Assembly: GCA_030390025.1 (NCBI GenBank)
Contig: CM059431.1
Coordinates: 127,102,001 to 127,166,000, forward strand
Reading direction: 5' to 3'
DNA from: Squalus acanthias
Taxonomy: Eukaryota
Length of the DNA stretch: 64,000 nt
The notes under the pieces are model-generated. The model was not told the DNA's origin. It saw only the letters and a program-made list of their open reading frames with translations, and ran no database searches. Numbering within the stretch: position 1 is the stretch's first letter; each line of letters starts with the position of its first letter. A program made the position numbers and the translations under genes. Shown one piece after another: positions 162 through 42,909 of this stretch.

Positions 162-1994
162 TGTAAAGTTTCCAAAATTTGCAGATCCCCAAAAATATCT
201 AAGGGAAAAAAAAATAAGGACTTTGGAACTTTAAAGGAACATGTCTGGACATGTACTGCACGTGATCTACCTCTGTGAATAGCAGGCTCGAGGATTGCAT
301 TGTCTGGGAATTCAAAGCCCAGCAAACATTAACATTTGGACAATAGGCCCTGGGAAAAGGCCGCCCCACCCAAAACACAGAACCCATAGGAATGCGAGGC
401 CCAGCAAGGAACCCAAAACATGAGAACAATGCAAGCTTCCATAATACAACAGCTCAACAGGACGCAAACCATTTGATTTGGTTTAGCATAGTTGAAGGCC
501 CATCAAAATTTAACAAGACAATGAACAGGCCTCACCTGAAACTCACTTCATTACGAAACCAGTTTTCGTGAGGAGTTTTTGGGGGGGGGGCGAAAAAGGA
601 CTATAATTGCAGCAGGACCCAAGATTTCTTTCTCTTTTGACTCGCCGACAACGCTGGCACAACGCTCCCTCTCAGCTCTGCCCAGAAGCCGCATGGTAAA
701 GGAAGACATTCGATGACCAGAATCACCATCAACTTACCTGGCTGGATTTCGTACTGTTAATACCCCTGTTTGGTGAGCATTATCCCTGATCTCCTGAAAC
801 CGAAACCTAGCTAGATAGTGGGATTTCTGGGAGGGATAAAGGTTTTTCTTGTATATTGTCATTCTCCCTCGCCGGTAACCGTGTGTTCCCCAAACCTGTT
901 TAAGTGTGAAGTGTGTTTAAGTTTGTTACCTTTTATTTTTAATAAAAGTTATAGGGGGAAAAATTCAGTTGGTTGCGCATCCCGTTAGCGCCTTAAGAGG
1001 GCGCTAATGGGGCGCAAAGCATCTAGTGCCCAGGCACGGCGAAGTTTGCGCCGCTCGCGAAATTAACTAGACATTTTGCAGCGGCGCTAAACACTACCGC
1101 CACGATCTCCTGCGCCGGCAGATCGTGACATCAGTCGAGTGCGCAACGCCCCGGTATCACCCCGGAGCGGATATTGAGTGGCGCCCCCTGCCTTACCGCC
1201 TGACGCTAGCAACGACAGGTTGAGGGGAGCGTTCTGCAGTCATGAAGGGAAAGGGGGAGCGTTATTTAAAGGTGACCGCTTCCTGCCTTTTATTGTTGGT
1301 GCCATTTTTGAACTACGCATTCTGAGAGAGAGAGACAGAGACTTCTGGAGAGATTCAACGTTGTGTGAAGGAATTTTGGGTACTGAGCAGCACTTTGCAG
1401 GTTCATTTTGATTTGCCATTCCTTGCATCGATTTAGAAGAGACTGTGGGGGCTGCACTCTGAGCTCTTTGCCTCGTACTCTCCATTGTTCTTTCCAGCAG
1501 ATTTGATGTGCAGGTCTCTCCAGGCCGAGATTCAAGGCTGCAATGAGCAGGATGTGGATGGAAAGCAAGATTAACCATCCCCTTTAAGAACTGGCCCGTG
1601 CCATTGTGTGTGTGTTCCATTGCTGACTGACATTACATGAGCTTCGCCAGCGCTCTGAGGTAGTGCCTCGCTCCTCGGCCTTTGCGCCTTAAGACAGGTG
1701 TGAAGCGCCTGATTTAGCGCTCCAATCACCTCCAGGGTCGATAAAAGTCAAGTTTGCAGTCGGTGGCGATAATTAGCGCCAGGCGCTAATCTTTACGCCC
1801 GGCCGATAATTGCGCCCCAAATGGGGCGATACTGAATTTCTCCCCCATAGTTCTTTAATCGGAATCTGTTGTCTACTGCATCTTTATTCACAACCCCTAA
1901 ATAAGTCCAAGTTTTGAACCTGGGGCGTGGGAGCGATTTGAACCGCTCACTGAGTCAGGGGAAAGGCTGACCCCTACCACCACCACCCCCTACA
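162..1994 (+). mobile_element. Solo LTR (Gypsy/ERV-like), interrupted by a Harbinger MITE at 954-1846
   Basis: Starts TGTAAAG (162) and ends CCCCTACA (1994). The 4-bp TSD GAAC lies at 158-161 and 1995-1998. AATAAA at 941-946. Both ends are similar to the minus-strand LTR at 45750-47233. Confidence 0.85.
954..1846. mobile_element. Non-autonomous PIF/Harbinger element (MITE family A)
   Basis: TIRs GGGGGAAAAATTCAGT / ACTGAATTTCTCCCCC, 3-bp TSD ATA, subterminal GCGCTAA repeats. An inverted copy lies at 33498-34400. Confidence 0.9.
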
Positions 1995-9906: not shown

Positions 9907-10294
9907 TGTCCGTTAATTTGCATGCCCTATATCTTTCACATACATGCACACAATTTATTTCTCTTTCAGTATCAAATTGCGTCCCCATGTGAATTCAGTT
10001 GTATTAATCTGCTATAGCTCTGCTACATGCTAAAACAAAACCATCTGTCATCATGTGCAATCAGATCACAGGCACAAATGCATGGAGATTACCTCAATTA
10101 CTGCTGTTATGGTGATGGGATTGTTTCTACCAGTATTACCACAGCATTACTATTAAGTGAGAATTAATTGAGAGGAAGCATTAGAAAATAAAATGCAGAA
10201 GGAAAACTGATGCTTTTAAAGGAGGTATAATAATAGGGACATTTTAACAAAGTGGGTCTCAGGGCCCCTCAGTGAGGCGTTCAGCACCCTCAGC

Positions 10295-11950
10295 TCCGAT
10301 CACCAGCCTCCCCCCGACCCTCCCGATCACCAGCCACCCCTCAACGCTCCCGATCACCAGCCTCTACCCCCACCTGATCACCAGCCTCCCCACGAGCCTC
10401 CCGATCACCAGCCTCCCCCCCCGACCCTCCCGATCACCAGCCTCCCCCCCGACCCTCCCGATCACCAGCCTCCCCCCCACCCTCCCGATCATCAGCCTCC
10501 TCCCCGACCCTCCCGATCACCAGCCTCCCCCCCCGACCCTCCCAATCACCAGCCTCCCCCCGACCCTCCCGATCACCAGCCTCCCCCCGACCCTCCCGAT
10601 CACCAGCCTCCCCCCCGACCCTCCCGATCACCAGCCTCCCCCCCGACCCTCCCGATCACCAGCCTCCCCCCAGCCCTCCCGATCACCAGCCTCCCCCCCA
10701 CCCTCCCGATCACCAGCCTCCCCCCCCGGTCCCTCCCGATCACCAGCCTCCCCCCCAGCCCCCCCGATCACCAGCCTCCCCCCCGACCCTCCCGATCACC
10801 AGCCTCCCCCCGACCCTCCCAATCACCAGCCTCCCCCCCACCCCCCCCGATCACCAGCCTCCCCCCCGACCCTCCCGATCACCAGCCTCCCCCCGACCCT
10901 CCCGATCACCAGCCTCCCCCCCAGCCCTCCCGATCACCAGCCTCCCCCCGACCCTCCCGATCACCAGCCTCCCCCCCAACCCTCCCAATCACCAGCCTCC
11001 CCCCCGACCCTCCCGATCACCAGCCTCTACCCCCGACCCTCCCGATCACCAGCCTCCCCCCCACCCTCCCGATCACCAGCCTCCCCCCCAGCCTCCCGAT
11101 CACCAGCCTCCCCGCCGACCCTCCCGATCACCAGCCTCCCCCCCACCCTCCCGATCACCAGCCTCCCCCCGACCCTCCCGATCACCAGCCTCCCCCCAGC
11201 CCTCCCGATCACCAGCCTCCCCCCCCCACCCTCCCGATCACCAGCCTCCCCCCCCGTCCCTCCCGATCACCAGCCTCCCCCCCAGCCCCCCCGATCACCA
11301 GCCTCCCCCCCGACCCTCCCGATCACCAGCCTCCCCCCGACCCTCCCAATCACCAGCCTCCCCCCCGACCCTCCCGATCACCAGCCTCCCCCCGACCCTC
11401 CCGATCACCAGCCTCCCCCCCAGCCCCCCCGATCACCAGCCTCTCCCCAACCCTCCCAATCACCAGCCTCCCCCCCGACCCTCCCGATCACCAGCCTCCC
11501 CCCCAGCCCTCCCGATCACCAGCCTCCCCCCCGACCCTCCCGATCACCAGCCTCCCCCCCACCCTCCCGATCACCAGCCTCCCCCCCACCCTCCCGATCA
11601 CCAGCCTCCCCCCCCGACCCTCCCGATCGCCAGCCTCTACCCCCGACCCTCCCGATCACCAGCCTCCCCCCCGACCCTCCCGATCACCAGCCTCCCCCCC
11701 ACCCTCCCGATCGCCAGCCTCTACCCCCGACCCTCCCGATCACCAGCCTCCCCCCCGACCCTCCCGATCACCAGCCTCCCCCCCACCCTCCCGATCGCCA
11801 GCCTCTACTCCCGTCCCTCCCGATCACCAGCCTCCCCCCGTCCCTCCCGATTACCAGCCTCCCCGCCAGCCCCCCCGATCACCAGCCTCCCCCGACCCTC
11901 CCGATCACCAGCCTCCCCCCCCAGCCCTCCAGATTGCCAGCTTCCCCCCA
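10295..11950. repeat. C-rich minisatellite, unit about 26-28 bp (CCGACCCTCCCGATCACCAGCCTCCCC), about 60 copies
   Basis: Direct tandem repetition with variable C-run length. Confidence 0.97.
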
Positions 11951-12206
11951 GTCCACGCTTTGAACCCCCTGCTACTAGTACGATAGCAAAATACTGCAGA
12001 TGCTGGAAATCCGAAATAACAACAGAAAACGCTGGAAAAACTCAGCAGGCCAGGCAGCATCCGTGGAGAGAGAAAGAGAGTTGACGTTTCAGGTCGATGA
12101 CCTTTCATCAGAACTGGGAAGAGCTGGAAATCAAATAGATTTAAGGCCAGGGTAAAGCTGGGAAAAGGGGGAGGGGATAAAGGAACAAAGGAGGAGATGA
12201 AGAGAC

Positions 12207-31768: not shown

Positions 31769-33400
31769 GAATAGAATCATAGAATGGGTACAGCACAGAA
31801 GCAGGCCATTCAGCCCATCGAGTCCGTGCCGACTCTCTGCAAGAGTAATTCAGCTGGTCCAACTCCCCGCACTTTCCCCATAGCACTGCAATTTTTTTTT
31901 TCTTCAGATTCTTATCCAATTCACCTTTGAAAGCCACAATTGAATTTGCCTCCACCACCCCTACAGGCAGTGAATTCCAGATCCTAACCACACACTGCGT
32001 AAAAATGTTTTTCCTCATGTCGCCTTTGGTTCTTCTGCCAATCACATTAAATCTGTGTCCTCTGGTTCTCGACCCTTCCACCAATGGGAAAGTTTATCTC
32101 TATCTACTCGGTCTAGACCCCTCATGATTTTGAACACCTCTATCAAATCTCCTCTCAACCTTCTCTGCTCTAAGGAGAACAACCCCAGCATCTCCAGTCT
32201 ATCCATGTAACTGCAGTCCCTCATCCCTGGAACCATTCTTGTAAATCTATTTGCACCCTCTCTAAGGCCTTCACATCCTTCCGAAAGTGTGGTGCTCAGA
32301 ATTGGACACAATACTCTATTTGAGGCTGAAGCAGTGTTTTACACAGGTTCATCATAACTTCCTTGCTTTTGTACTCTATACCTCTATTATGAAGCCTAGT
32401 ATCCTGTATGCTTTTTGAACCACTTTCTCAACCTGCCCTATCATCTTCAACGATTTGTGCACATATACCCCCAGGTCTCTCTGTTCATGCACCCCTTTTA
32501 TAATTACCCCTTTAGTTTATATTGCCTCTCCTCGTTCTTCCTACAAAAATGTATCACTTCGCACTTTTCTGCGTTAAATTTCATCTGCCACGTGTCCGCC
32601 TATTCTACCAGCCTGTCTATGTCTTCTTGAAGTCCATCACTATCCTCCTCACTGTTCACTATACTTCCAAGTTTTGTGTCATCTGCAAATTTTGAAATTG
32701 TGCCCTGTACACCCAAGTCTAAGTCATTAATATATATCACGAAAAGCAGTGGTCCTAGTACCGACCCCTTTGGAACACTACTGTATACCTACCTCCAGTC
32801 CAAAAAACAATCGCTCACCACTACTCTGTTTCCTGTCACTTAACCAATTTCATATAATTGCTGCCACTGTCCCTTTTATTCCATGGGCTTCAACTTTGAT
32901 GGCAAGCCTTTATGTGGCATTTTATCAAACGCCTTTTGGAAGTCCGTGTACACCACATCAACTGCATTGCCCTAATCAACCCTTTCTGTTACTTCATCAA
33001 AAAACTCGATCAAGTTAGTTAAACACGATTTGATTTTAACAAATCTTGTGCTTTCCTTAATTAATCTATACTTGTCCAAGTGACTGTTAATTTTGTCCTT
33101 GATTATCGTTTCTAAAAGCTTCCCCACTACCGAGGTTAAACAGACTGGCCTGTAGTTGCTGGGTTTATCCTAAAAGCCTTTTTTGAACAAGGGTGTAACA
33201 TTTGCAATTCTCCAGTCCTCTGGCACCAGCTCTGTATCCAAGGAGGATTGGAAGTTTATGGCCAGTAACTTTCCAATTTCCACCTTTACTTCCCTAAGCA
33301 TCCTTGGATGCATCCTATCCGTTCCTGGTGATGTATCTACTTTAAGTGCAGCCAGCCTTTCTAGTACCTCCTCCGCATCAATTTTTATCCCAATTGTTGC
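31769..33400 (-). mobile_element. Nested CR1 LINE (different subfamily), 5'-truncated
   Basis: Tail GAATAGAATCATAGAAT; peptide LGLFSLEQRRLRGDLIEVFKIMRG. Confidence 0.9.
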
Positions 33401-33999
33401 AAGACTTCCTTACTCTTGTACTCCAACCCTCTGGCAATAAACGCAAACATGCCATTTGCCTTCCTAATTGCTTGCTGTACCTGCATGCTAACTCTATGGG
33501 GGAAAAATTCAGTATCGCCCCATTTGGGGCGCAATTATCGGTCGGGCGCAAAGATTAGCGCCTGGCGCTAATTATCGCCTCCGACTGCAAACTTGGCTTT
33601 TATCGCCACTGGAGGTGATTGGAGCGCTAAATCAGGCGCTTCACAGCTGTCTTAAGGCGCAAAGGCCGAGGAGCGAGGCGCTAACTCAGAGCGCTGGCAA
33701 AGCTCATGTGATGTCAGTCAGCAATGGAACACAGACACAATGGCGCCGGCCAGTTCTTAAAGGGGAGGGTTGATCTTGCTCTCCATCGACATCCTGCTCA
33801 TTGCAGCCTTGAATCTCGGCCTGGAGAGACCTGTACATCAAATCTGCTAGAAAGAACAATGTAGAGAACAAGGGAAAGAGCTCAGAGTGCAGCCCCCACA
33901 GTCTCTTCTAAATAGATGCAAGGAAGGGCAAATCAAAATGAACCTGCAAAGTGCTGCTCAGTACCCAAAACTCCTTCACACAGCGTTGAATCTCTCCAG

Positions 34000-34030
<31 letters not shown>

Positions 34031-34679
34031 AGAATGCGTGGTGCAAAAATGTCACCAACAAAAAAAGGCAGGAAGCGTTCGCCTTTAAATAGCGCTCCCC
34101 CAGTCCCTGCCTGACTGCAAAACGCTCCCCTCAACCTGTCGCTGCTAGCGGCAGGCAGTAAGGCAGGGGGCGCCACTCAATATCCGGTCCGGGGCGCTAC
34201 CAGCGCGTTGCACCCTCGACTGACGTCACAATCTGCTCTCGCAAAAGATTGTGGCGGTAGTGTTTAGCGCCGCCGCAAAATGTCTAGTTAATTTTGTGAG
34301 CGGCGCAAACATCGCCGCGCACGGGCGCTAGTTGCTTTGAGCCCCATTAGCGCCCTCTTAAGGCGCTAATGGGAGGCGCAAACCAACTGAATTTTTCCCC
34401 TATGTTTTTTGTAGTAGTACACACAAATCTTTCTGGACACCAATATTTAATAGTTTCTCACCATTTAAAAATATTCTGTTTTTCCTACGAATGTGGAAAA
34501 CCTCACATTTCACCACATTACACTCCATCTGCCATCTTAATGCCCACTCACTTAACCTGTCTATATCCTCTTGCATGCTCTTTGCGTTCTCCTCACATCT
34601 TACATCTATACCTTTGTATTGTCAGCAAACTTGGATACATTTCACTCGGTCTCTTCATCTAAGTCATTAATATAGATTG
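33390..34679 (-). mobile_element. CR1 RT fragment interrupted by MITE 33498-34400
   Basis: The minus strand reads ...AAAAAACATA|GAGTTAGCATGCAGGTACAGCAAGCAATTAGGAAGGCAAATGG. Confidence 0.85.
33498..34400. mobile_element. Harbinger MITE family A (inverted relative to 954-1846)
   Basis: TIR GGGGGAAAAATTCAGT / ACTGAATTTTTCCCC, TSD TAT. Confidence 0.92.
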
Positions 34680-35329
34680 TCGGGAAAATGCTGGAATCCA
34701 TTATTAAGGAAGTGGTAACAGGGCATTTGGAAAATCATAATATGATTAAGCAGAGTCAGCATGGTTTTATGAAAGGGAAATTGTGTTTGACAAATATATT
34801 AGAGTTTTGAGGATGTAACTAGCAGGGTAGATAAAGGTGAACCAGTGGGTGTAGTATATTTGGATTTCTAAAAGGCATTCGATAAGGTGCCACCTAAAAG
34901 GTTGTTCGGGCTAATATATTAGCATGGATAGAGGATTGGTTAATGGACAGAAAACAGAGAGTAGGGATAAACAGGTCATTTTCAAGTTGGCAGGCTGTAA
35001 CTAGTGTGGTGCCGCAAGGATCAGTGCTTGGGCCTCAGTTATTTACAATTTATATTAATGAAGGGACCGAATGTAATGTATGCAAGTTTGCTGATGATAC
35101 ATAGCTAGGTGGGAAAGTAAGCTGTGAGGAGGACACAAAAAGCCTGCAAAGGGATATAGACAGGTTAAGTGAGTCAGCAATAAGGTGGAAGATGGAGTAT
35201 AATGTGAGGAATGGGAGGTTATTCACTTTGGTAGGAATATTAGAAAAACAGAATATTTTTTAAATGGTGAGAAACTATTAAATGTTGGTGTTCAGAGAGA
35301 TTTAAGTGTTCTGGTACAGGAAACACAGA

Positions 35330-37602
35330 GGGGGAGAAATTCCCTTCCTTATCGCCACCCGTCAGTGTGGCGTATTGTCGAGAAAGCGAAGGCTGTCGCT
35401 CTTTTGCCAGCTGATGACAGGTCCTGGGGCGTCTTCCATTTTCATGGGCCTGGTAGCGCTGCTGTTAAGAGGTATCGCCCTTAAAAGAAAAGTGGCGGAG
35501 TGGTGATGCCAGCTGACTTAACGTCACCACAGCGAACTTTGACACTCGCGCTGAACTCAGCGCAGGTCTTAATCACGCTAGGTAAACCCAGCGTGCAAGC
35601 AGACTCACAGAGGGTCTGTCAGCACCTTCTAAAGAGACACCACACATCTTTCAGATAAGTTTGCATTTAAGCTTTTGGAGTGTTCTTTTTTAATTTTACT
35701 GAAGTAGTGGCTGTTGGCAATAGGTGTTCAAAATTATTTTAAGTGTGTAGGGAGTGCTGCTGGACACTTGCAAGGCACCGGATGGTAAAGGAAGGCCTCT
35801 GAGAAGACAGAAAATGGTGCAAATACTCAGCAGGTCAGGCAACATCCGTGGAGAGGGAAACAGAGTTCAGGTCTCAGGTCGAGATGCTGCCTGACCTGCT
35901 GAGTTTTTCAAGCATTTTATGCTGTCATTTCTGATTTACAGCATCCGCTTGCAGAGGGAAGAGGAAGACACAGATGAGGAAGAAATAGAAGAGGAAAAAG
36001 CAGAAGAGGAGGAAGCGGAAGAGGAAGAAGAGGAAGAGGAGGAATTAGAAGGAAGGATGCAACCCAGATCATTTCTGGTCGGGATATCCGGGATGGAATC
36101 AGCCACCTGCGGTCCCAGTGACCACAACTGCAATTCCCCTTTCAACATTAGTCCCACACCTTAACTTCCCTCTGTTATTGACCATCACAGCATCCTCTTG
36201 ACCACGATGCTGAAATAAAAGCCCCAACAAAGCAAACTTTCCAATCCAAATTTATCCATTTATCCATCCAATATGACATCAAAAATCAACTCATCACCCA
36301 TATGCATTCTCTTAGTGACTGTCTTGTGTATGCCTTTGCCTATCCTACTGATGTCACGCAGTGCTACCCCAGTGCCTGCAGCATGGCTGGTGGAAGGCTG
36401 CTGACTTTCAGTGGGGGACACTGCAAATGGCCTTGCTCGCCGACCTTGAGGAGCTGGTGGCTGGGTGTGTGATATCGAGTGATGGTGTTTCTTCTTCTTC
36501 TTCACTTTCCTCTCCCTCTTCTTGGTCAACCACTGTCTGGGCAGGCTGCATTTCTTGGGTGTGTGAAATGAGGAAGGCACAAGGGCGGAGTTGTGATGAG
36601 AGAGGGCAGGAAAGCAAGAGGTGCACGCCAGAAGGAGGATAACGTATGAGGATACCAGAATCTTGTATCCTTTCAGCCCCGCCACTGGCCAAGGGCTCAG
36701 CCATGCCCCTGCCAAGAACGGCCTGCACTGTCTCCTCCAAGGGGTGAAGTGAGGCTAGGAATGGGAGATGTACCTTGTGATTGGTACAGAATGTTGGTAG
36801 GTGAGTGTTTTTGGGGTGGCGGGGGGGGAGTCGTGCATTGAGCAGTGTGTGAGGCTAGTGATGCAGTTGGTAGGAGACGGCTTTTGAAGATACATTCACT
36901 GACCTTGACCAGTGGTCTGAGGTCATGAAGCTTCTTTGGGCACTGGAGCCAGGTGGTGGGGTGACACTGCTGGTAGTGACGGCCTCGGTGATGTAGTCCC
37001 ACATCATTCTTTCTAGAGGTCCTCCTGGCCGCTGTGGGTAGAGGACGTGTCTTGCAGGGTTGACCCCCTGCACAAAGCTGGAATGCTGCATGTGAGACCC
37101 TGGTTACGCCTTCCCTGGCTTGCTGAGCCACTTGTGCTGGTGCTGAAGCAGTTTTCCCATTTTTTGAGGTCCAGAAGGGCATTCAGCTTGAAGTGCTGAA
37201 GACTCCTATTTGGGACTTCTTTTTAATATTCATTTTTTTTTCTTGAAAGGCAGTAAGGGATGAAAACTGCATTTTTCACTTCATTTACATTTTTATTATC
37301 ATTGAATGCATTGTCCCTTTAATTCATAGCCCTTTTAATTGCCCACAATTCCTTGTGAACTCACAGCCTCACTCCCACAGGCTGTAAGAAGCTGGAACGC
37401 CGCTCCTGGATGTGACCTTCGGGTCGGATGCCTCCACTAATGCCACCAGGAGGGCATTACACTGTAAGTTAGCACTGGGCTAAAAATCTTTGACACCCCA
37501 GTGCGAATTTTTGCCCGGCAGCACTGCGGAAATTTTCAGCAGCCGTAAACCCGAGGCCGTGGTGACACCGGCAGGTTTTTGCCAATGTCCAGTTTCGTGG
37601 CC
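35330..37602. mobile_element. Non-autonomous Harbinger: Myb remnant (-) and acidic transposase C-terminal remnant (+)
   Basis: TSD AGA at 35327-35329 and 37603-37605. Myb peptide MMWDYITEAV...QCPKKLHDLRPLVK followed by a GT donor. The plus strand has an E-rich tract then RDIRDGISHLRSQ*. Confidence 0.82.
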
Positions 37603-39870
37603 AGAGAGTTAGCATGCAGGTATAGCAAGCAGTTAGGAAGGCAAATGGCATGTTGGCTTGTATTGCAAGGGGGTTGGAGGACAAGAGTAAGGAAATTTTG
37701 CTACAATGGTACAAGGCTTTGGTGAGACCACACCTGGAGTACTGTGCACAGTTTTGGTCTCCTTATCTGAGGAAGGATCGACTTGCCTTGGAGGCGGTGC
37801 AACGAAGGTTCACTAGGTTGATTCCTGGGATGAGAGGGCTGTCCCTTGAGGAGAGATTGTCTAGAATGGGCCTATACTCTCTGGAGTTGAGAAGAATGAG
37901 AGGTGATCTCACTGAAACATATAAGATTCTGAGGGGGATTGACAGGGTAGATAATAGAGATTGTTTTCCCTGACTGGACAGTCTAGATCTTGGGGGTATA
38001 GTCTCAGGATAAGTGGTCGGCAATTTAAGACTGAGATGAGGAGGAATTTCTTCACTCAGAGGGTTGTGAATCTTTGGAATTCTCTACCCCAAAGGGCTGT
38101 GGATGCTGAATCGTTGAGTATATTCCAGGCTGAGACAGTTAGATTTTTGGATTCTGGGGGAATCAAGGGATATGGAGATCTGGAGGGAAAGTTGGGTTGA
38201 GGTCAAAGATCAGCCATGATCTTATTGAATGGCAGAGCAGACTCGAAGGGCTGTATGGCCTATTCCTGCTCCCATTTCTTATGTTTTTATGAGTGGGAGT
38301 CGAGGGCATAACTCAATAAGAAGGGAAGTTTTGCAAAACTATTTTCACCTGACGGGTAATAGAGTAATAGAATGTTACCAGAAAAGACCATTGAAGCAGA
38401 CAGTATAAATAGAGTTGAGAAATAATTGGCTACATTTCTGTAGAGAGGAGGCATTGAGGAATCTCAAGTGTTGATGGGTAGGTACAGTTAGTCAATAAAA
38501 AAGGGACAATCTTCTGAGCTTAATGTCTCCTGTTCCTAAATGTTCTTACATTCTTGACTACATATAAAGTTGATGGACCTACCTTTCCCTTGATGAAAGC
38601 ATTAAGTGGTTTCACATTCCCCACTTTCTCGATGGCCGGAATTTTCTGTACCTGGGCGGGTCGGGTGCAGGCGGTTGACGTGGTGGGTCGCGACCCCGTT
38701 GCTGTTTCAATCCCGCTGCAGAATACGGCTTTGCGTCAATGGGGTGTTACCCGGCCCTATTAAATGGTGCGGGTCTGATGATGTCATCCATGACGTGTTT
38801 TCAGCCGGTAGATTTAAAGGAGCCACGGCCACATTGCATTTGAAGGTTCGTCTAGGAGTGTGCAGTCACTGCACTGGAGCTTCTGATTGTTCCAAACACT
38901 TGGAAACATGACTGAACAGAGGCAGAGGGCTGCACCCAGCTTCTCCGATGACTCCCTCCATATGCTTGTGGAGTGAGTCAGAGCACGAAGGGAGGTCCTC
39001 TTCCTTTCCGATGGGTGGAAGAGACCTCCCCAGGAGACAAAAAGAGCCTGGCTCCAAATTACAGAGGAGGTCAACAGCAGGGAGATGGTCAGTTCGACCT
39101 GGGTGCAGTGCCGGAAACGTTTCAATTATCTCATTAGATCAGAAAAGGTGAGTACAAAGCCACACTCAACTTCATCCTGCTCTGCCTCTCATCACATCCC
39201 CACCACTCTGCCTTCCCAACACTACTCCTGCACATCATTACTCACACCAACATACCTTGCATGTCCACCCATCCCTCTCTCTCTATCACATCCCCATCGA
39301 ACTAGCCACCCCTCACACTGATCCTCATCCGAATGCAATCATAACAACTAACAACACACAAGGAGGCCATTTGGCTTTGGCACCCCACTCCATCATAGTC
39401 TCCCTCTAAAGATCTAACCCTTCCATTCATTCCATCAGTCTCACTCAACCTTCTCTTCTTTCCCTCCTTGCAGGAAAAGAGAGCCCACAATAAGCGGGAG
39501 AGGGAGAGAACTGGAGGTGGACCTCCATCATTTGCCACCCTCACAACAGCAGAGGAGGCTGTGTTGGAAGTATCGGGATTGGCCGAGCAGCTGGAGGTGG
39601 GAGACGGAGAGAGGGAGACATCTCAGCAACCTGGTGACAGAATTACACATCAAACAGCTACAGGGCATAAATCAGTCACTCATGTGGGGATTGATCTCAT
39701 CGGACACTGAATGGTCATCAAGTGCATAATGGTATCTGTACCCATTATTCGTAGGACATATCTAACTCGTCTCTTTACTCTCCCACAGGTCCATCAAGAG
39801 CCACACCTCCGCCCCCCCCCCCCCCCCACCACCACCGCACACTCCCCTCCCCCCCCCACTGTCCAGGAGG

Positions 39871-40313: not shown

Positions 40314-42909
40314 TGAGAGGAAGAGGAAGACGACTCCTCAATAAAAGCTGAATATAGGGAGTTAGGAGGTAAATTGAAAAATAGGATCTCAAAGGTAGTA
40401 ATCTCAGGATTGCTACCAGTGCCACATGCCAGTCAGAGTAGAAATAGAAGGATATTTCAGATGAATATGTGGCTAGAGGAATGGTGCAAGGGGGAGGGAT
40501 TCAAATTCCTGGGACATTGGAACCGGTTCTGGAGGAGGTGGGACCAGTACAAACTGGACGGTTTGCACCTGGGCGGGACTGGAACCGATGTCCTAGGGGG
40601 AGTGTATGCTAGTGCTGTTGGGGAGGGTTTAAACTAAAATGGCAGGGGGTTGGGAACCTGTGCAGGGAGACAGAGGAAAGGGAAGCAAGGATAGAAACAA
40701 AAGACAGGAAGGAGAAAAGCAAAAGTGGAAGGCAGAGAAATCAAGGGTGTAAATCAAACAGGGCCACAGTAAATAATAATTCTAAAAGGACTAAGAGTGT
40801 TAAAAAATCAAGCCTGCAGGCTTTGTGTCTTAATGCGAAGCATTCGTAATAAGGTGGATGAATTAGCTGCGCAAATAGATGTAAACGGATATGATATAAT
40901 TGGGATTATGGAGACATGGCTCCAGGATGACCAAGTCTGGGAATTCAACATCCAGGGGTATTCAATATTCAGGAAGGACAGGAAAAAAGGAAAAGGAGGT
41001 GGGGTAGCATTGCTGGTTAAAGAGGAGATTAACACAATAGTAAGGAAGGATAATAGCGCTGATGATGTGGAATCTGTATGGGCAGAGCTGAGAAATACCA
41101 AGGGGCAGAAAACATTAGTGGGAGTTGTATACAGACCCCCAAACAGTAATGCTGAGGTTGGGGATGGCATTAAATGGAAAATTAGAGATGCGTGCAATAA
41201 GGGCACAGCAGTTATCATGGGTGACTTTAATCTACATATAGATTGGGCTAACCAAATTAGTAACAATATTGTGGAGGAGGAATTCCTAGAGTGTATACGG
41301 GATGGTTTCTTGGACCAATGTGTCGAGGAACCAACTAGAGATCAGGCCATCTTAGACTGGGTATTATGTAATGAGAAAGGATTAATTAGCAATCTTGTTG
41401 TGCGAGGCCCCTTGGGGAGGAGCGATCATAATATGATAGAATTCTTCATTAAAATGGAGAGTGAAGTAGTTGACTCAGAGACTAGGATCCTGAAATTAAA
41501 TAAAGGAAACTACGATGGTATGAGGCACAAGTTGGCTAGGATGGATTGGGGAATGTTACTTAAAGGGTTGATGGTGGATAGGCAATGGCAAACATTTCAA
41601 GATCGGATGGATGAACTACAGAATTTGTTCATCCCTGTTTGGCACAAAAATAAAACAAAAAAAGTGACTCAACCATGGCTAACAAGGGAAATTAGGGATA
41701 GCATAAGATCCAAGGAGAGGACATAGAATTTGGCCAGAAAAAGCAGCAAACCTGAGGATTGGGAGCAGTTTAGGATTCAGCAAAGGAGGACAAAGGGATT
41801 AATTAAGAGGGGGAAAATAAATTATGAGAGTAAGCTTGCAGTGAACATAAAAACTGACTGTAAAAGCTTCTATAGATATGTAAAGAGAAAAAGATTGGGG
41901 AAGTCAAGCGTAGGTCCCTTGCAGTCAGAATCAGGGGAATTTATAATGGGGAACAAAGAAATGGCAGACCAATTAAATACATACTTTTGTTCTGTCTTCA
42001 CAAAGGAGGACACAAATAACCTCCCAGAGATGTTGGGGAACATAGGCTGTAATGAGAGGGAGGAATTGAATGAAATCAGTATTTGTAGGGAAATGGTGTT
42101 AGGGAAATTGACGGGATTGAAGGCCGATAAATCCCCAGGGCCTGATAATCTACATCCTAGGGTACTTAAGGAAGTGGCCCTAGAAATAGTAGATGCATTG
42201 CTGGTCATCTTCCAAAATTCTATAGACTCTGAAAAAGTTCCCATGGATTGGAGGATAGCTAATGTAACCCCACTATTTAAAAAAGGTGGTAGAGATAAAA
42301 CGGGGAGTTATAGGCCAGTAAGTCTGACATCGGTAATGGGGGAAATGCTAGAGTCCATTATAAAAGATGTAATAGCAGAGCACTTGGAAAACAGTGACAG
42401 GATCGGACAAAGTCAACATGGATTTACAAAAGGTAAATCATGCTTGACTAATCTACTGACATTTTTTGAGGATGTAACTGGTTGAATAGATAAGGGAGAA
42501 CCAGTGGATGTGGTGTATTTGGACTTTCAGAAGGCTTTCGATAAGGTCCCGCATAAGAGATTAGCGTGCAAAGTTAAAGCACACAGGATTGGGGGTAAGG
42601 TACTGTCTTGGATAGAGAACTGGTTGGCACACAGGAAGCAAAGAGTTGGAATAAATGGGTCTTTTTCCGAGTGGCAGGCAGTGACTAGTGGGGGTACCGC
42701 TGGGATCGGTGCTAGGACCCCAGCTATTCACAATATATATTAATGATCTTGACGAGGGAACTAGATGTAATATCTCCAAGTTTGCAGATGACACAAAGCT
42801 GGGTGGGTATGTGTGCTGTGAGGAGGATGCAGAGAAACTCCAGTATTAATTGGACAGGTTGGGTGATTGGGCAGATGCATGGCAGATGCAGTATTAATAG
42901 GATAAATGC
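40314..42909 (+). mobile_element. CR1 LINE: ORF1 esterase-like C-terminus, ORF2 APE endonuclease and partial RT
   Basis: ORF1 VISGLLP...DGLHL. ORF2 ETW, YRPP, GDFN, SDH, YRPVSLTS and KFADD. Stops present. Confidence 0.93.

What the first reader, a model, noticed from the sequence alone, without database searches (positions are those of the whole stretch)
33495..37605. Two different Harbinger elements inserted at the same nucleotide of two independent CR1 LINE copies
Seen: removing MITE A (33498-34400, TSD TAT) from the minus-strand CR1 gives AAAAAAC-ATA-GAGTTAGCATGCAGG. Removing the Myb-bearing element (35330-37602, TSD AGA) from the plus-strand CR1 gives AAACAC-AGA-GAGTTAGCATGCAGG. The homologous position is identical, although the elements have different internal sequences and the host copies differ. 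Established: zebrafish Harbinger3_DR has an extended palindromic target preference (about AAACAC-CWG-GTCTTT). Inference: an abundant CR1 subfamily carries a preferred Harbinger landing site, so a DNA transposon may be using a LINE as a multicopy safe harbour.
Basis: partly seen in the sequence, partly recalled or inferred. Interest (0 to 1): 0.72.

Follow-up and report, generated by a model that had tools for sequence, protein, structure and literature searches.

The report
Harbinger landing hotspots inside CR1 LINEs
Two different cut-and-paste (Harbinger) transposons sit at the same base of two unrelated copies of a common LINE repeat, as do about 235 more genome-wide, likely because that spot spells the short mirror-symmetric landing sequence these transposons prefer everywhere; it holds only about 0.1% of their copies and LINEs overall are not favoured, so it is an ordinary hotspot and not a safe harbour.

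Summary
Observation confirmed. Both elements, both 3-bp duplications and the shared CR1 position are as stated. The elements share no internal similarity, and the hosts are independent copies (85% identical, no shared minority letters). Both are deletion derivatives of two-gene Harbingers.

The site is a real hotspot: 255 genome matches, 92 of the first 100 listed at the exact base, from many families in both orientations, about 350 times chance. It is not the main landing place:
- It holds about 0.1% of elements (0 of 293 unselected ends).
- A CR1 site 190 nt upstream is about half occupied (1,873 filled, 1,649 empty).
- CR1 3' tails are also hit.
- CR1 bodies overall are not enriched (18 of 112 ends against 17.5% cover).

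A palindromic target matrix learned outside CR1 resembles the zebrafish Harbinger3_DR consensus and ranks these two sites 3rd and 4th of 1,959 CR1 positions. Best reading: known Harbinger target preference multiplied by LINE copy number. Unexplained: the strongest site is 2-4 times fuller than a rough motif-only estimate. The scan has reported Harbinger hotspots in CR1 several times elsewhere in this genome.

The parts
33393..33497 (-). CR1-type LINE host 1, 3' piece (downstream of the insertion), including one copy of the duplication
   Evidence: 89% complementary to 37601-37707; alignment
33495..33497 (.). 3-bp target site duplication of MITE A, left copy
33498..34400 (.). MITE A, 903 bp non-autonomous Harbinger; 16-bp TIRs (33498-33513; 34386-34400, one base short)
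   Evidence: Both halves match the ends of a transposase-bearing 4.2-kb element in L209 (90% and 80%); 26,562 exact TIR matches in the genome
34401..34403 (.). 3-bp target site duplication of MITE A, right copy
34401..34680 (-). CR1-type LINE host 1, 5' piece; 5'-truncated at about 34680
34682..35329 (+). CR1-type LINE host 2, 5' piece (reverse transcriptase region)
   Evidence: RVT_1 hit at 34898-35101, E 3.5e-6, below the curated cut-off
35137..35139 (+). Empty, degenerate copy of the stronger CR1 hotspot (profile position 1086), 190 nt upstream of the finding's site
   Evidence: Sequence. This copy differs at two bases from the variant that is about half occupied genome-wide
35327..35329 (.). 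3-bp target site duplication of element B, left copy
35330..37602 (.). Element B, 2,273 bp Harbinger derivative: transposase core missing, decayed Myb-like gene on the minus strand, asymmetric ends
   Evidence: Relatives L149, L248 and L203 at 78-84%; relative L216 has a DDE_Tnp_4 ORF (E 1.7e-27) ending where its similarity to B begins
36645..37091 (-). Myb/SANT-like ORF remnant, frameshifted
   Evidence: No Pfam hit by itself; 48% identity, E 8e-33, to the L203 ORF, which hits Myb_DNA-bind_5 only weakly (E 0.0055, below cut-off)
37603..37605 (.). 3-bp target site duplication of element B, right copy
37603..38291 (+). CR1-type LINE host 2, 3' piece to its short repeat tail
954..1846 (.). Second MITE A copy (91% identical) with its own 3-bp duplication, in flanks with no CR1 match

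Best explanation
Many Harbinger DNA-transposon families in this genome have inserted independently, in both orientations, at one base of CR1 LINE copies, likely because their transposases prefer a palindromic target of about 15-17 bp and this base is one of a few good matches in a LINE present in very many copies. Shown: 3-bp A/T-rich duplications; a half-site that, read outward, is a purine (mostly G), then A/T, G/C, T, a pyrimidine and T; several sharp peaks along CR1 and in CR1 3' tails; no overall CR1 excess. Inferred: the transposase, with its Myb-like partner, reads this DNA sequence directly, as reported for zebrafish Harbinger3_DR. Also inferred: occupancy of a CR1 site is set by match quality multiplied by how long that CR1 subfamily was exposed to active Harbingers. 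The LINE is likely a passive, repeated substrate.
For: (1) Peak and independence: 92 of 100 listed matches at one offset, with many different termini. In the 30 loci examined, resolved elements show 3-bp duplications, both orientations, and 67-88% identity between related inserts, so they were not carried along by one young CR1 master. (2) A matrix trained on 196 ends outside CR1 bodies and tails ranks positions 241, 1277 and 1086 as 1st, 3rd and 4th of 1,959. It scores the 1086 site about 8 times above the finding's G variant (2,013 against 242). The observed filled-to-empty odds are 1.13 against 0.16, about 7 times. (3) The half-sites of site 1086 are used outside that CR1 context: 326 and 96 matches, controls 1 and 0. 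Combining them predicts 13-27% occupancy for a full site, the same order as the about 53% seen. (4) No CR1 excess: 18 of 112 unbiased ends against 17.5% cover, binomial p 0.80; 22 of 112 with tails. (5) Harbinger3_DR is described as highly specialised for a palindromic 15-bp consensus (PMC3016246, passage). Hotspots of one element inside another, including DNA transposons in both orientations, are described in PMC2836564 (section 13).
Against: (1) The matrix scores the all-A variant of the finding's site (818) above the G variant (242), yet occupancy is about 0.7% against about 14%. The A-variant subfamilies are younger (92-95% within-group identity against 88.6%), which would explain it, but age and sequence were not separated. 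(2) The 2nd-ranked position (1202) had no insertion among 293 ends, while low-ranked ones had some (position 298, rank 25, four loci; position 1408, rank 52, two loci). (3) The motif-only estimate for site 1086 falls 2-4 times short. Its denominators come from base composition only, with an assumed correction. (4) The rank of position 1277 is inflated because the CR1 alignment holds copies picked for that site. (5) The CR1 profile covers only about 2 kb of the 3' end, and the unbiased sample is small (112 ends, not all independent).
Confidence: 0.82

Rival explanations
1. Harbingers are steered to CR1 itself, by recognition of longer LINE context or by tethering to LINE chromatin or newly inserted LINE DNA, and use it as a safe harbour.
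For: One CR1 site is about half occupied, 2-4 times above the motif-only estimate. In the unbiased sample several CR1 positions and the 3' tail recur. The matrix misranks some sites.
Against: CR1 bodies are not enriched (18 of 112 against 17.5%). About 80% of ends lie outside the profiled CR1 body and tails. The finding's site holds about 0.12% and the strongest site about 1% of elements. The same half-sites work outside CR1. Dada, the real multicopy-targeting DNA transposon, is described as strictly target-specific (PMC3706591, passages); this is not.
Confidence: 0.1
2. Insertion is only motif-driven, but selection removes inserts elsewhere and keeps those in dead LINE copies, which inflates the CR1 peaks.
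For: It would account for the 2-4-fold excess at the strongest site without any targeting. Dead LINE copies are presumably neutral (inference).
Against: Most of a 3.7-Gb genome is likely neutral too, and CR1 bodies show no overall excess. Selection cannot make single-base peaks.
Confidence: 0.05
3. The filled copies descend from one or a few ancestral insertions spread by CR1 retrotransposition, duplication or gene conversion.
For: The two hosts abut head to head. Most inserts in the younger A-variant hosts have one terminus type.
Against: A and B share no significant similarity. The hosts share 0 minority letters. Inserts at the site belong to many families in both orientations, and related ones are only 67-88% identical, below the identity of their young host subfamilies.
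Confidence: 0.02

Closest known systems
Harbinger3_DR / Harbinger3N_DR of zebrafish (Sinzelle et al. 2008; primary paper not held; seen as a passage of PMC3016246)
   Same: 3-bp duplication inside a palindromic 15-17-bp target. The outward half-site has G, T, G/C, T, pyrimidine, T in both. Two-gene structure (DDE transposase plus Myb-like protein; PMC9179366, passages).
   Different: Here the central triplet is A/T-rich rather than C-W-G, and the preference is looser (no matrix position above 0.7). It is shared by many families in one genome. I found no paper placing Harbinger hotspots in CR1.
Nested-element hotspots in the human genome (Levy, Schwartz and Ast, PMC2836564; abstract, passages and section 13 read)
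   Same: Elements, including DNA transposons (MER1/hAT in MIR3, both orientations), pile up at single positions of other repeats; target motifs can be read from such sites.
   Different: That paper does not mention Harbinger (0 occurrences in the main text). It also reports a general excess of nesting, which I do not see for CR1 here. I did not see per-site occupancies near 50% in the parts I read.
Dada and Pokey, DNA transposons that target multicopy RNA genes (PMC3706591, passages)
   Same: A DNA transposon found repeatedly at one base of a multicopy sequence.
   Different: Dada is strictly target-specific for snRNA/tRNA genes. Here at most about 1% of elements sit at any one CR1 body site, and many families share the same sites.

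Membership tests
PIF/Harbinger DNA transposons | 3-bp target site duplication | tested here: met
   Both elements; most complete MITE A copies among 119 ends
PIF/Harbinger DNA transposons | Terminal inverted repeats | tested here: inconclusive
   Met for MITE A (16 bp). Element B's two ends match each other poorly, though each resembles a terminus type seen in other copies
PIF/Harbinger DNA transposons | DDE transposase of the DDE_Tnp_4 type in the element or its autonomous partner | tested here: met
   Absent from A and B themselves. Present in L216, a relative of B (E 1.7e-27), and inside L209, whose ends match both halves of MITE A
PIF/Harbinger DNA transposons | Second ORF with a Myb/SANT-like domain | tested here: inconclusive
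   B's frames give no Pfam hit and no protein-database hit. They match the L203 ORF at E 8e-33, which hits Myb_DNA-bind_5 below cut-off
Harbinger3_DR-type target preference | Extended palindromic target of about 15-17 bp | tested here: met
   Matrices from 119 MITE A ends, 122 unbiased ends and 196 non-CR1 ends; the centre triplet differs from the zebrafish consensus
Target-specific (safe-harbour) DNA transposons such as Dada | Most copies inserted at one site of a multicopy target | tested here: not met
   About 0.12% at this site and about 1% at the strongest site; 0 of 293 unselected ends here
Target-specific (safe-harbour) DNA transposons such as Dada | Enrichment in the target repeat as a whole | tested here: not met
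   18 of 112 ends in CR1 bodies against 17.5% cover
CR1 clade LINE (hosts) | Reverse transcriptase ORF2, 5' truncation, short tandem 3' tail | tested here: met
   RVT_1 hit; tails and truncation
CR1 clade LINE (hosts) | Placement in the CR1 clade by reverse-transcriptase phylogeny | not tested

The most novel reading that the evidence does not exclude
Harbinger transposases here get a real boost from LINE context beyond the 17-bp motif, enough to fill about half of all copies of one ORF2 site and to crowd the 3' tails, so that DNA transposons act as a sequence-directed breaker of particular CR1 subfamilies and select on the LINE's sequence at those sites.
Probability: 0.12. Interest if true: 0.65.

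Novelty: new member of a known kind. Interest (0 to 1): 0.28.

Why it matters
As it stands it is a clean natural read-out of Harbinger target choice. Thousands of near-identical LINE sites act as replicate substrates, so occupancy by sequence variant measures the preference in vivo, and about 50% occupancy at one site shows how strong it can be. There is also a practical warning: same-base insertions of related elements are common here, so shared insertions are unsafe as phylogenetic markers, and chimeric CR1-Harbinger consensus sequences are likely in repeat libraries. It does not show a new LINE-targeting strategy.

Tried and rejected
Local duplication or inversion of one filled host: rejected. 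Spread of one insertion by a CR1 master copy: rejected by family diversity, both orientations and insert divergence. The finding's site as the main landing place: rejected. Pfam and a protein-database search of element B's own frames gave nothing for Myb or transposase; identity came from relatives. Counts of the two half-site words, and of filled and empty tail repeats, in the sampled DNA were not obtained. So the motif-only estimate rests on base composition, and tail occupancy per site is unknown. The one-base contrast within one subfamily rests only on small by-eye counts in the listings (about 5 and 7 of 100 rows) and is not used as evidence. The loci could not be cut out, so their far ends and host sequences were not checked; many rows share a flank and may come from other repeats. 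From the 381 termini, those with nine 12-letter starts that looked internal were dropped before mapping (122 to 112 in the unbiased set). Sinzelle et al. 2008 is not held. No supplements were read; those of PMC2836564 may hold per-site occupancies.
Full report
1. The observation. MITE A runs from 33498 to 34400 with a 3-bp duplication on both sides. Element B runs from 35330 to 37602, also with a 3-bp duplication. The hosts are a minus-strand LINE fragment (34680 down to about 33393) and a plus-strand fragment (34682 to 38291). Aligned without the inserts, the two duplications fall on the same LINE position. What I tested is a reverse-transcriptase hit (RVT_1, E 3.5e-6, below cut-off), 5' truncation and tandem tails.

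2. Independence. A and B share no significant similarity. The hosts are 85.3% identical over 353 nt. Host 1 has a median of 86.1% and host 2 of 88.8% to 29 of 30 empty same-type copies from elsewhere, and those copies are 88.6% identical among themselves. In 358 alignment columns host 1 has 35 minority letters and host 2 has 20, with none shared. So these are two insertions into two independent LINE copies.

3. What the elements are. MITE A matches both ends of a 4.2-kb element in L209 (positions 1-371 at 90%, 389-903 at 80%), which contains a transposase segment homologous to a DDE_Tnp_4 ORF (E 1.7e-27). That ORF lies in L216, a relative of B, and ends where L216's similarity to B begins. B's minus-strand remnant matches an ORF of relative L203 (48%, E 8e-33) that hits Myb_DNA-bind_5 weakly. 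B's own frames gave no Myb or transposase hit. Both are therefore non-autonomous Harbinger derivatives. The two-gene layout is as described in PMC9179366 (passages).

4. The site genome-wide. The genome has 3.71 Gb. A search for the LINE flank followed within 0-30 nt by a Harbinger-type end gave 255 matches and 0 for the reversed control. Of the first 100 listed, 92 are at the exact base. Of the other eight, 4 are at a second site about 24 nt upstream, 1 is at the site with a shortened terminus, and 3 are elsewhere (counted by eye). The termini are of many types. In the 30 loci examined, resolved elements have 3-bp duplications, lie in both orientations, and related ones are 67-88% identical. 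Empty sites number 916 with G beside the duplication and 11,684 with another base. With 58 and 34 of the 100 listed rows of each kind, occupancy is about 14% (12-16%) and about 0.7%. Chance would give about 0.7 insertions in all, so the peak is about 350-fold. All counts need exact matches and are lower bounds.

5. The site is minor. In 1.09 Mb sampled at regular steps (L172-L280) I found 112 validated ends, which extrapolates to about 190,000 elements. About 235 at this site is about 0.12%. None of 293 ends not chosen for the site lies there (upper bound 1.3% if ends were independent, which they are not fully). The same mapping shows other peaks: profile position 1086 (six loci), 298, 241, 997, 1408, 1673 and 1790. 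Position 1086, 190 nt upstream, has 1,873 filled against 1,649 empty matches, about half occupied and about 1% of all elements. The 8-bp tandem tails of other CR1 subfamilies hold 13 further junctions. Yet CR1 bodies take 18 of 112 unbiased ends (16%; 10-24%) against 17.5% cover, and 22 of 112 with tails. The profile covers only about 2 kb of the 3' end, so true CR1 cover is likely higher.

6. Mechanism. Matrices from 119 MITE A ends, 122 unbiased ends and 196 ends outside CR1 bodies and tails agree on an A/T-rich triplet flanked by palindromic half-sites. These resemble the half-sites of the Harbinger3_DR consensus quoted in PMC3016246 (passage), but the centre differs. The non-CR1 matrix ranks positions 241, 1277 and 1086 as 1st, 3rd and 4th of 1,959. 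It predicts a ratio of about 8 between site 1086 and the finding's G variant; the observed ratio is about 7. Each half of site 1086 is used outside that LINE context (326 and 96 matches). Assuming independence and composition-based denominators, a full site should be 13-27% filled, against about 53% seen. Direct sequence read-out by the transposase is inferred from this and from the zebrafish element; it is not shown here.

7. Results against this reading. The matrix scores the all-A variant above the G variant, the reverse of the observed occupancy. Those subfamilies are younger (92-95% within-group identity), which likely explains it, but this was not separated from sequence. The 2nd-ranked position had no insertion in the sample, and some low-ranked ones did. 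The rank of 1277 is helped by how the aligned copies were chosen. The 2-4-fold shortfall at site 1086 may be estimation error, flanking positions not modelled, or a real context effect.

8. Comparison and novelty. Single-position hotspots of one element within another, including DNA transposons in both orientations, are described for the human genome (PMC2836564; abstract, passages and section 13). True multicopy targeting by a DNA transposon is Dada (PMC3706591, passages), and its defining feature is not met here. Six literature searches listed no paper on Harbinger hotspots in CR1. The library lacks most subscription papers, including the primary Harbinger3_DR paper, and I read no supplements. 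Earlier notes of this scan report the same kind of hotspot at CR1 sites and tails in this genome; I saw them after my tests and they are not independent support. Verdict: a real and strong hotspot, likely explained by a known target preference; a new member of a known kind; interest 0.28.

Noticed in passing
window 35137-35139; L061, L156, L167, L213, L243, L267: A CR1 ORF2 site 190 nt upstream of the finding's site is the stronger hotspot: 1,873 filled matches (95 of the first 100 rows at the exact offset, 2 rows double-counted) against 1,649 empty.
   Followed up: yes
L072, L079, L136, L146, L147, L150, L153, L157, L170, L172, L222, L235, L238: 13 junctions (4 of 112 unbiased ends, 9 of 181 MITE-A-enriched ends) sit in the 8-bp tandem 3' tail of other CR1 subfamilies; 11 have the ORF2 C-terminus just upstream. 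Some tails hold two elements one repeat unit apart (L079, L087, L135).
   Followed up: partly
L034, L050 (profile position 1253): A small second peak about 24 nt upstream of the finding's site: 4 of the first 100 rows, two mapped.
   Followed up: partly
L139, L171, L271: Three independent insertions at one base of another, unidentified repeat with no CR1 match: hotspots are not limited to CR1.
   Followed up: no
genome-wide: Harbingers are very abundant: 26,562 exact MITE A ends, and about 380,000 ends of all families extrapolated from 1.09 Mb. If this is a cartilaginous fish (my recalled impression from the LINE type, untested), it bears on PMC9179366, which found none in elephant shark and asked for other species to be checked (passages).
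   Followed up: no
window 38635-39318: Another Harbinger-type element with a Myb_DNA-bind_5 ORF at 38977-39318 (E 6.7e-5).
   Followed up: no
window 32534-34680 and 34682-38291: Three CR1 fragments packed together, two of them head to head with no gap at about 34680; they appear to be independent insertions.
   Followed up: partly
window 10285-11954: A long GC-rich minisatellite of short degenerate units.
   Followed up: no
window 40317-40634: ORF with a weak GDSL-lipase hit (E 1.5e-4, below cut-off) upstream of a CR1 ORF2, likely the esterase-type ORF1 known from some CR1/L2 LINEs (recalled).
   Followed up: no
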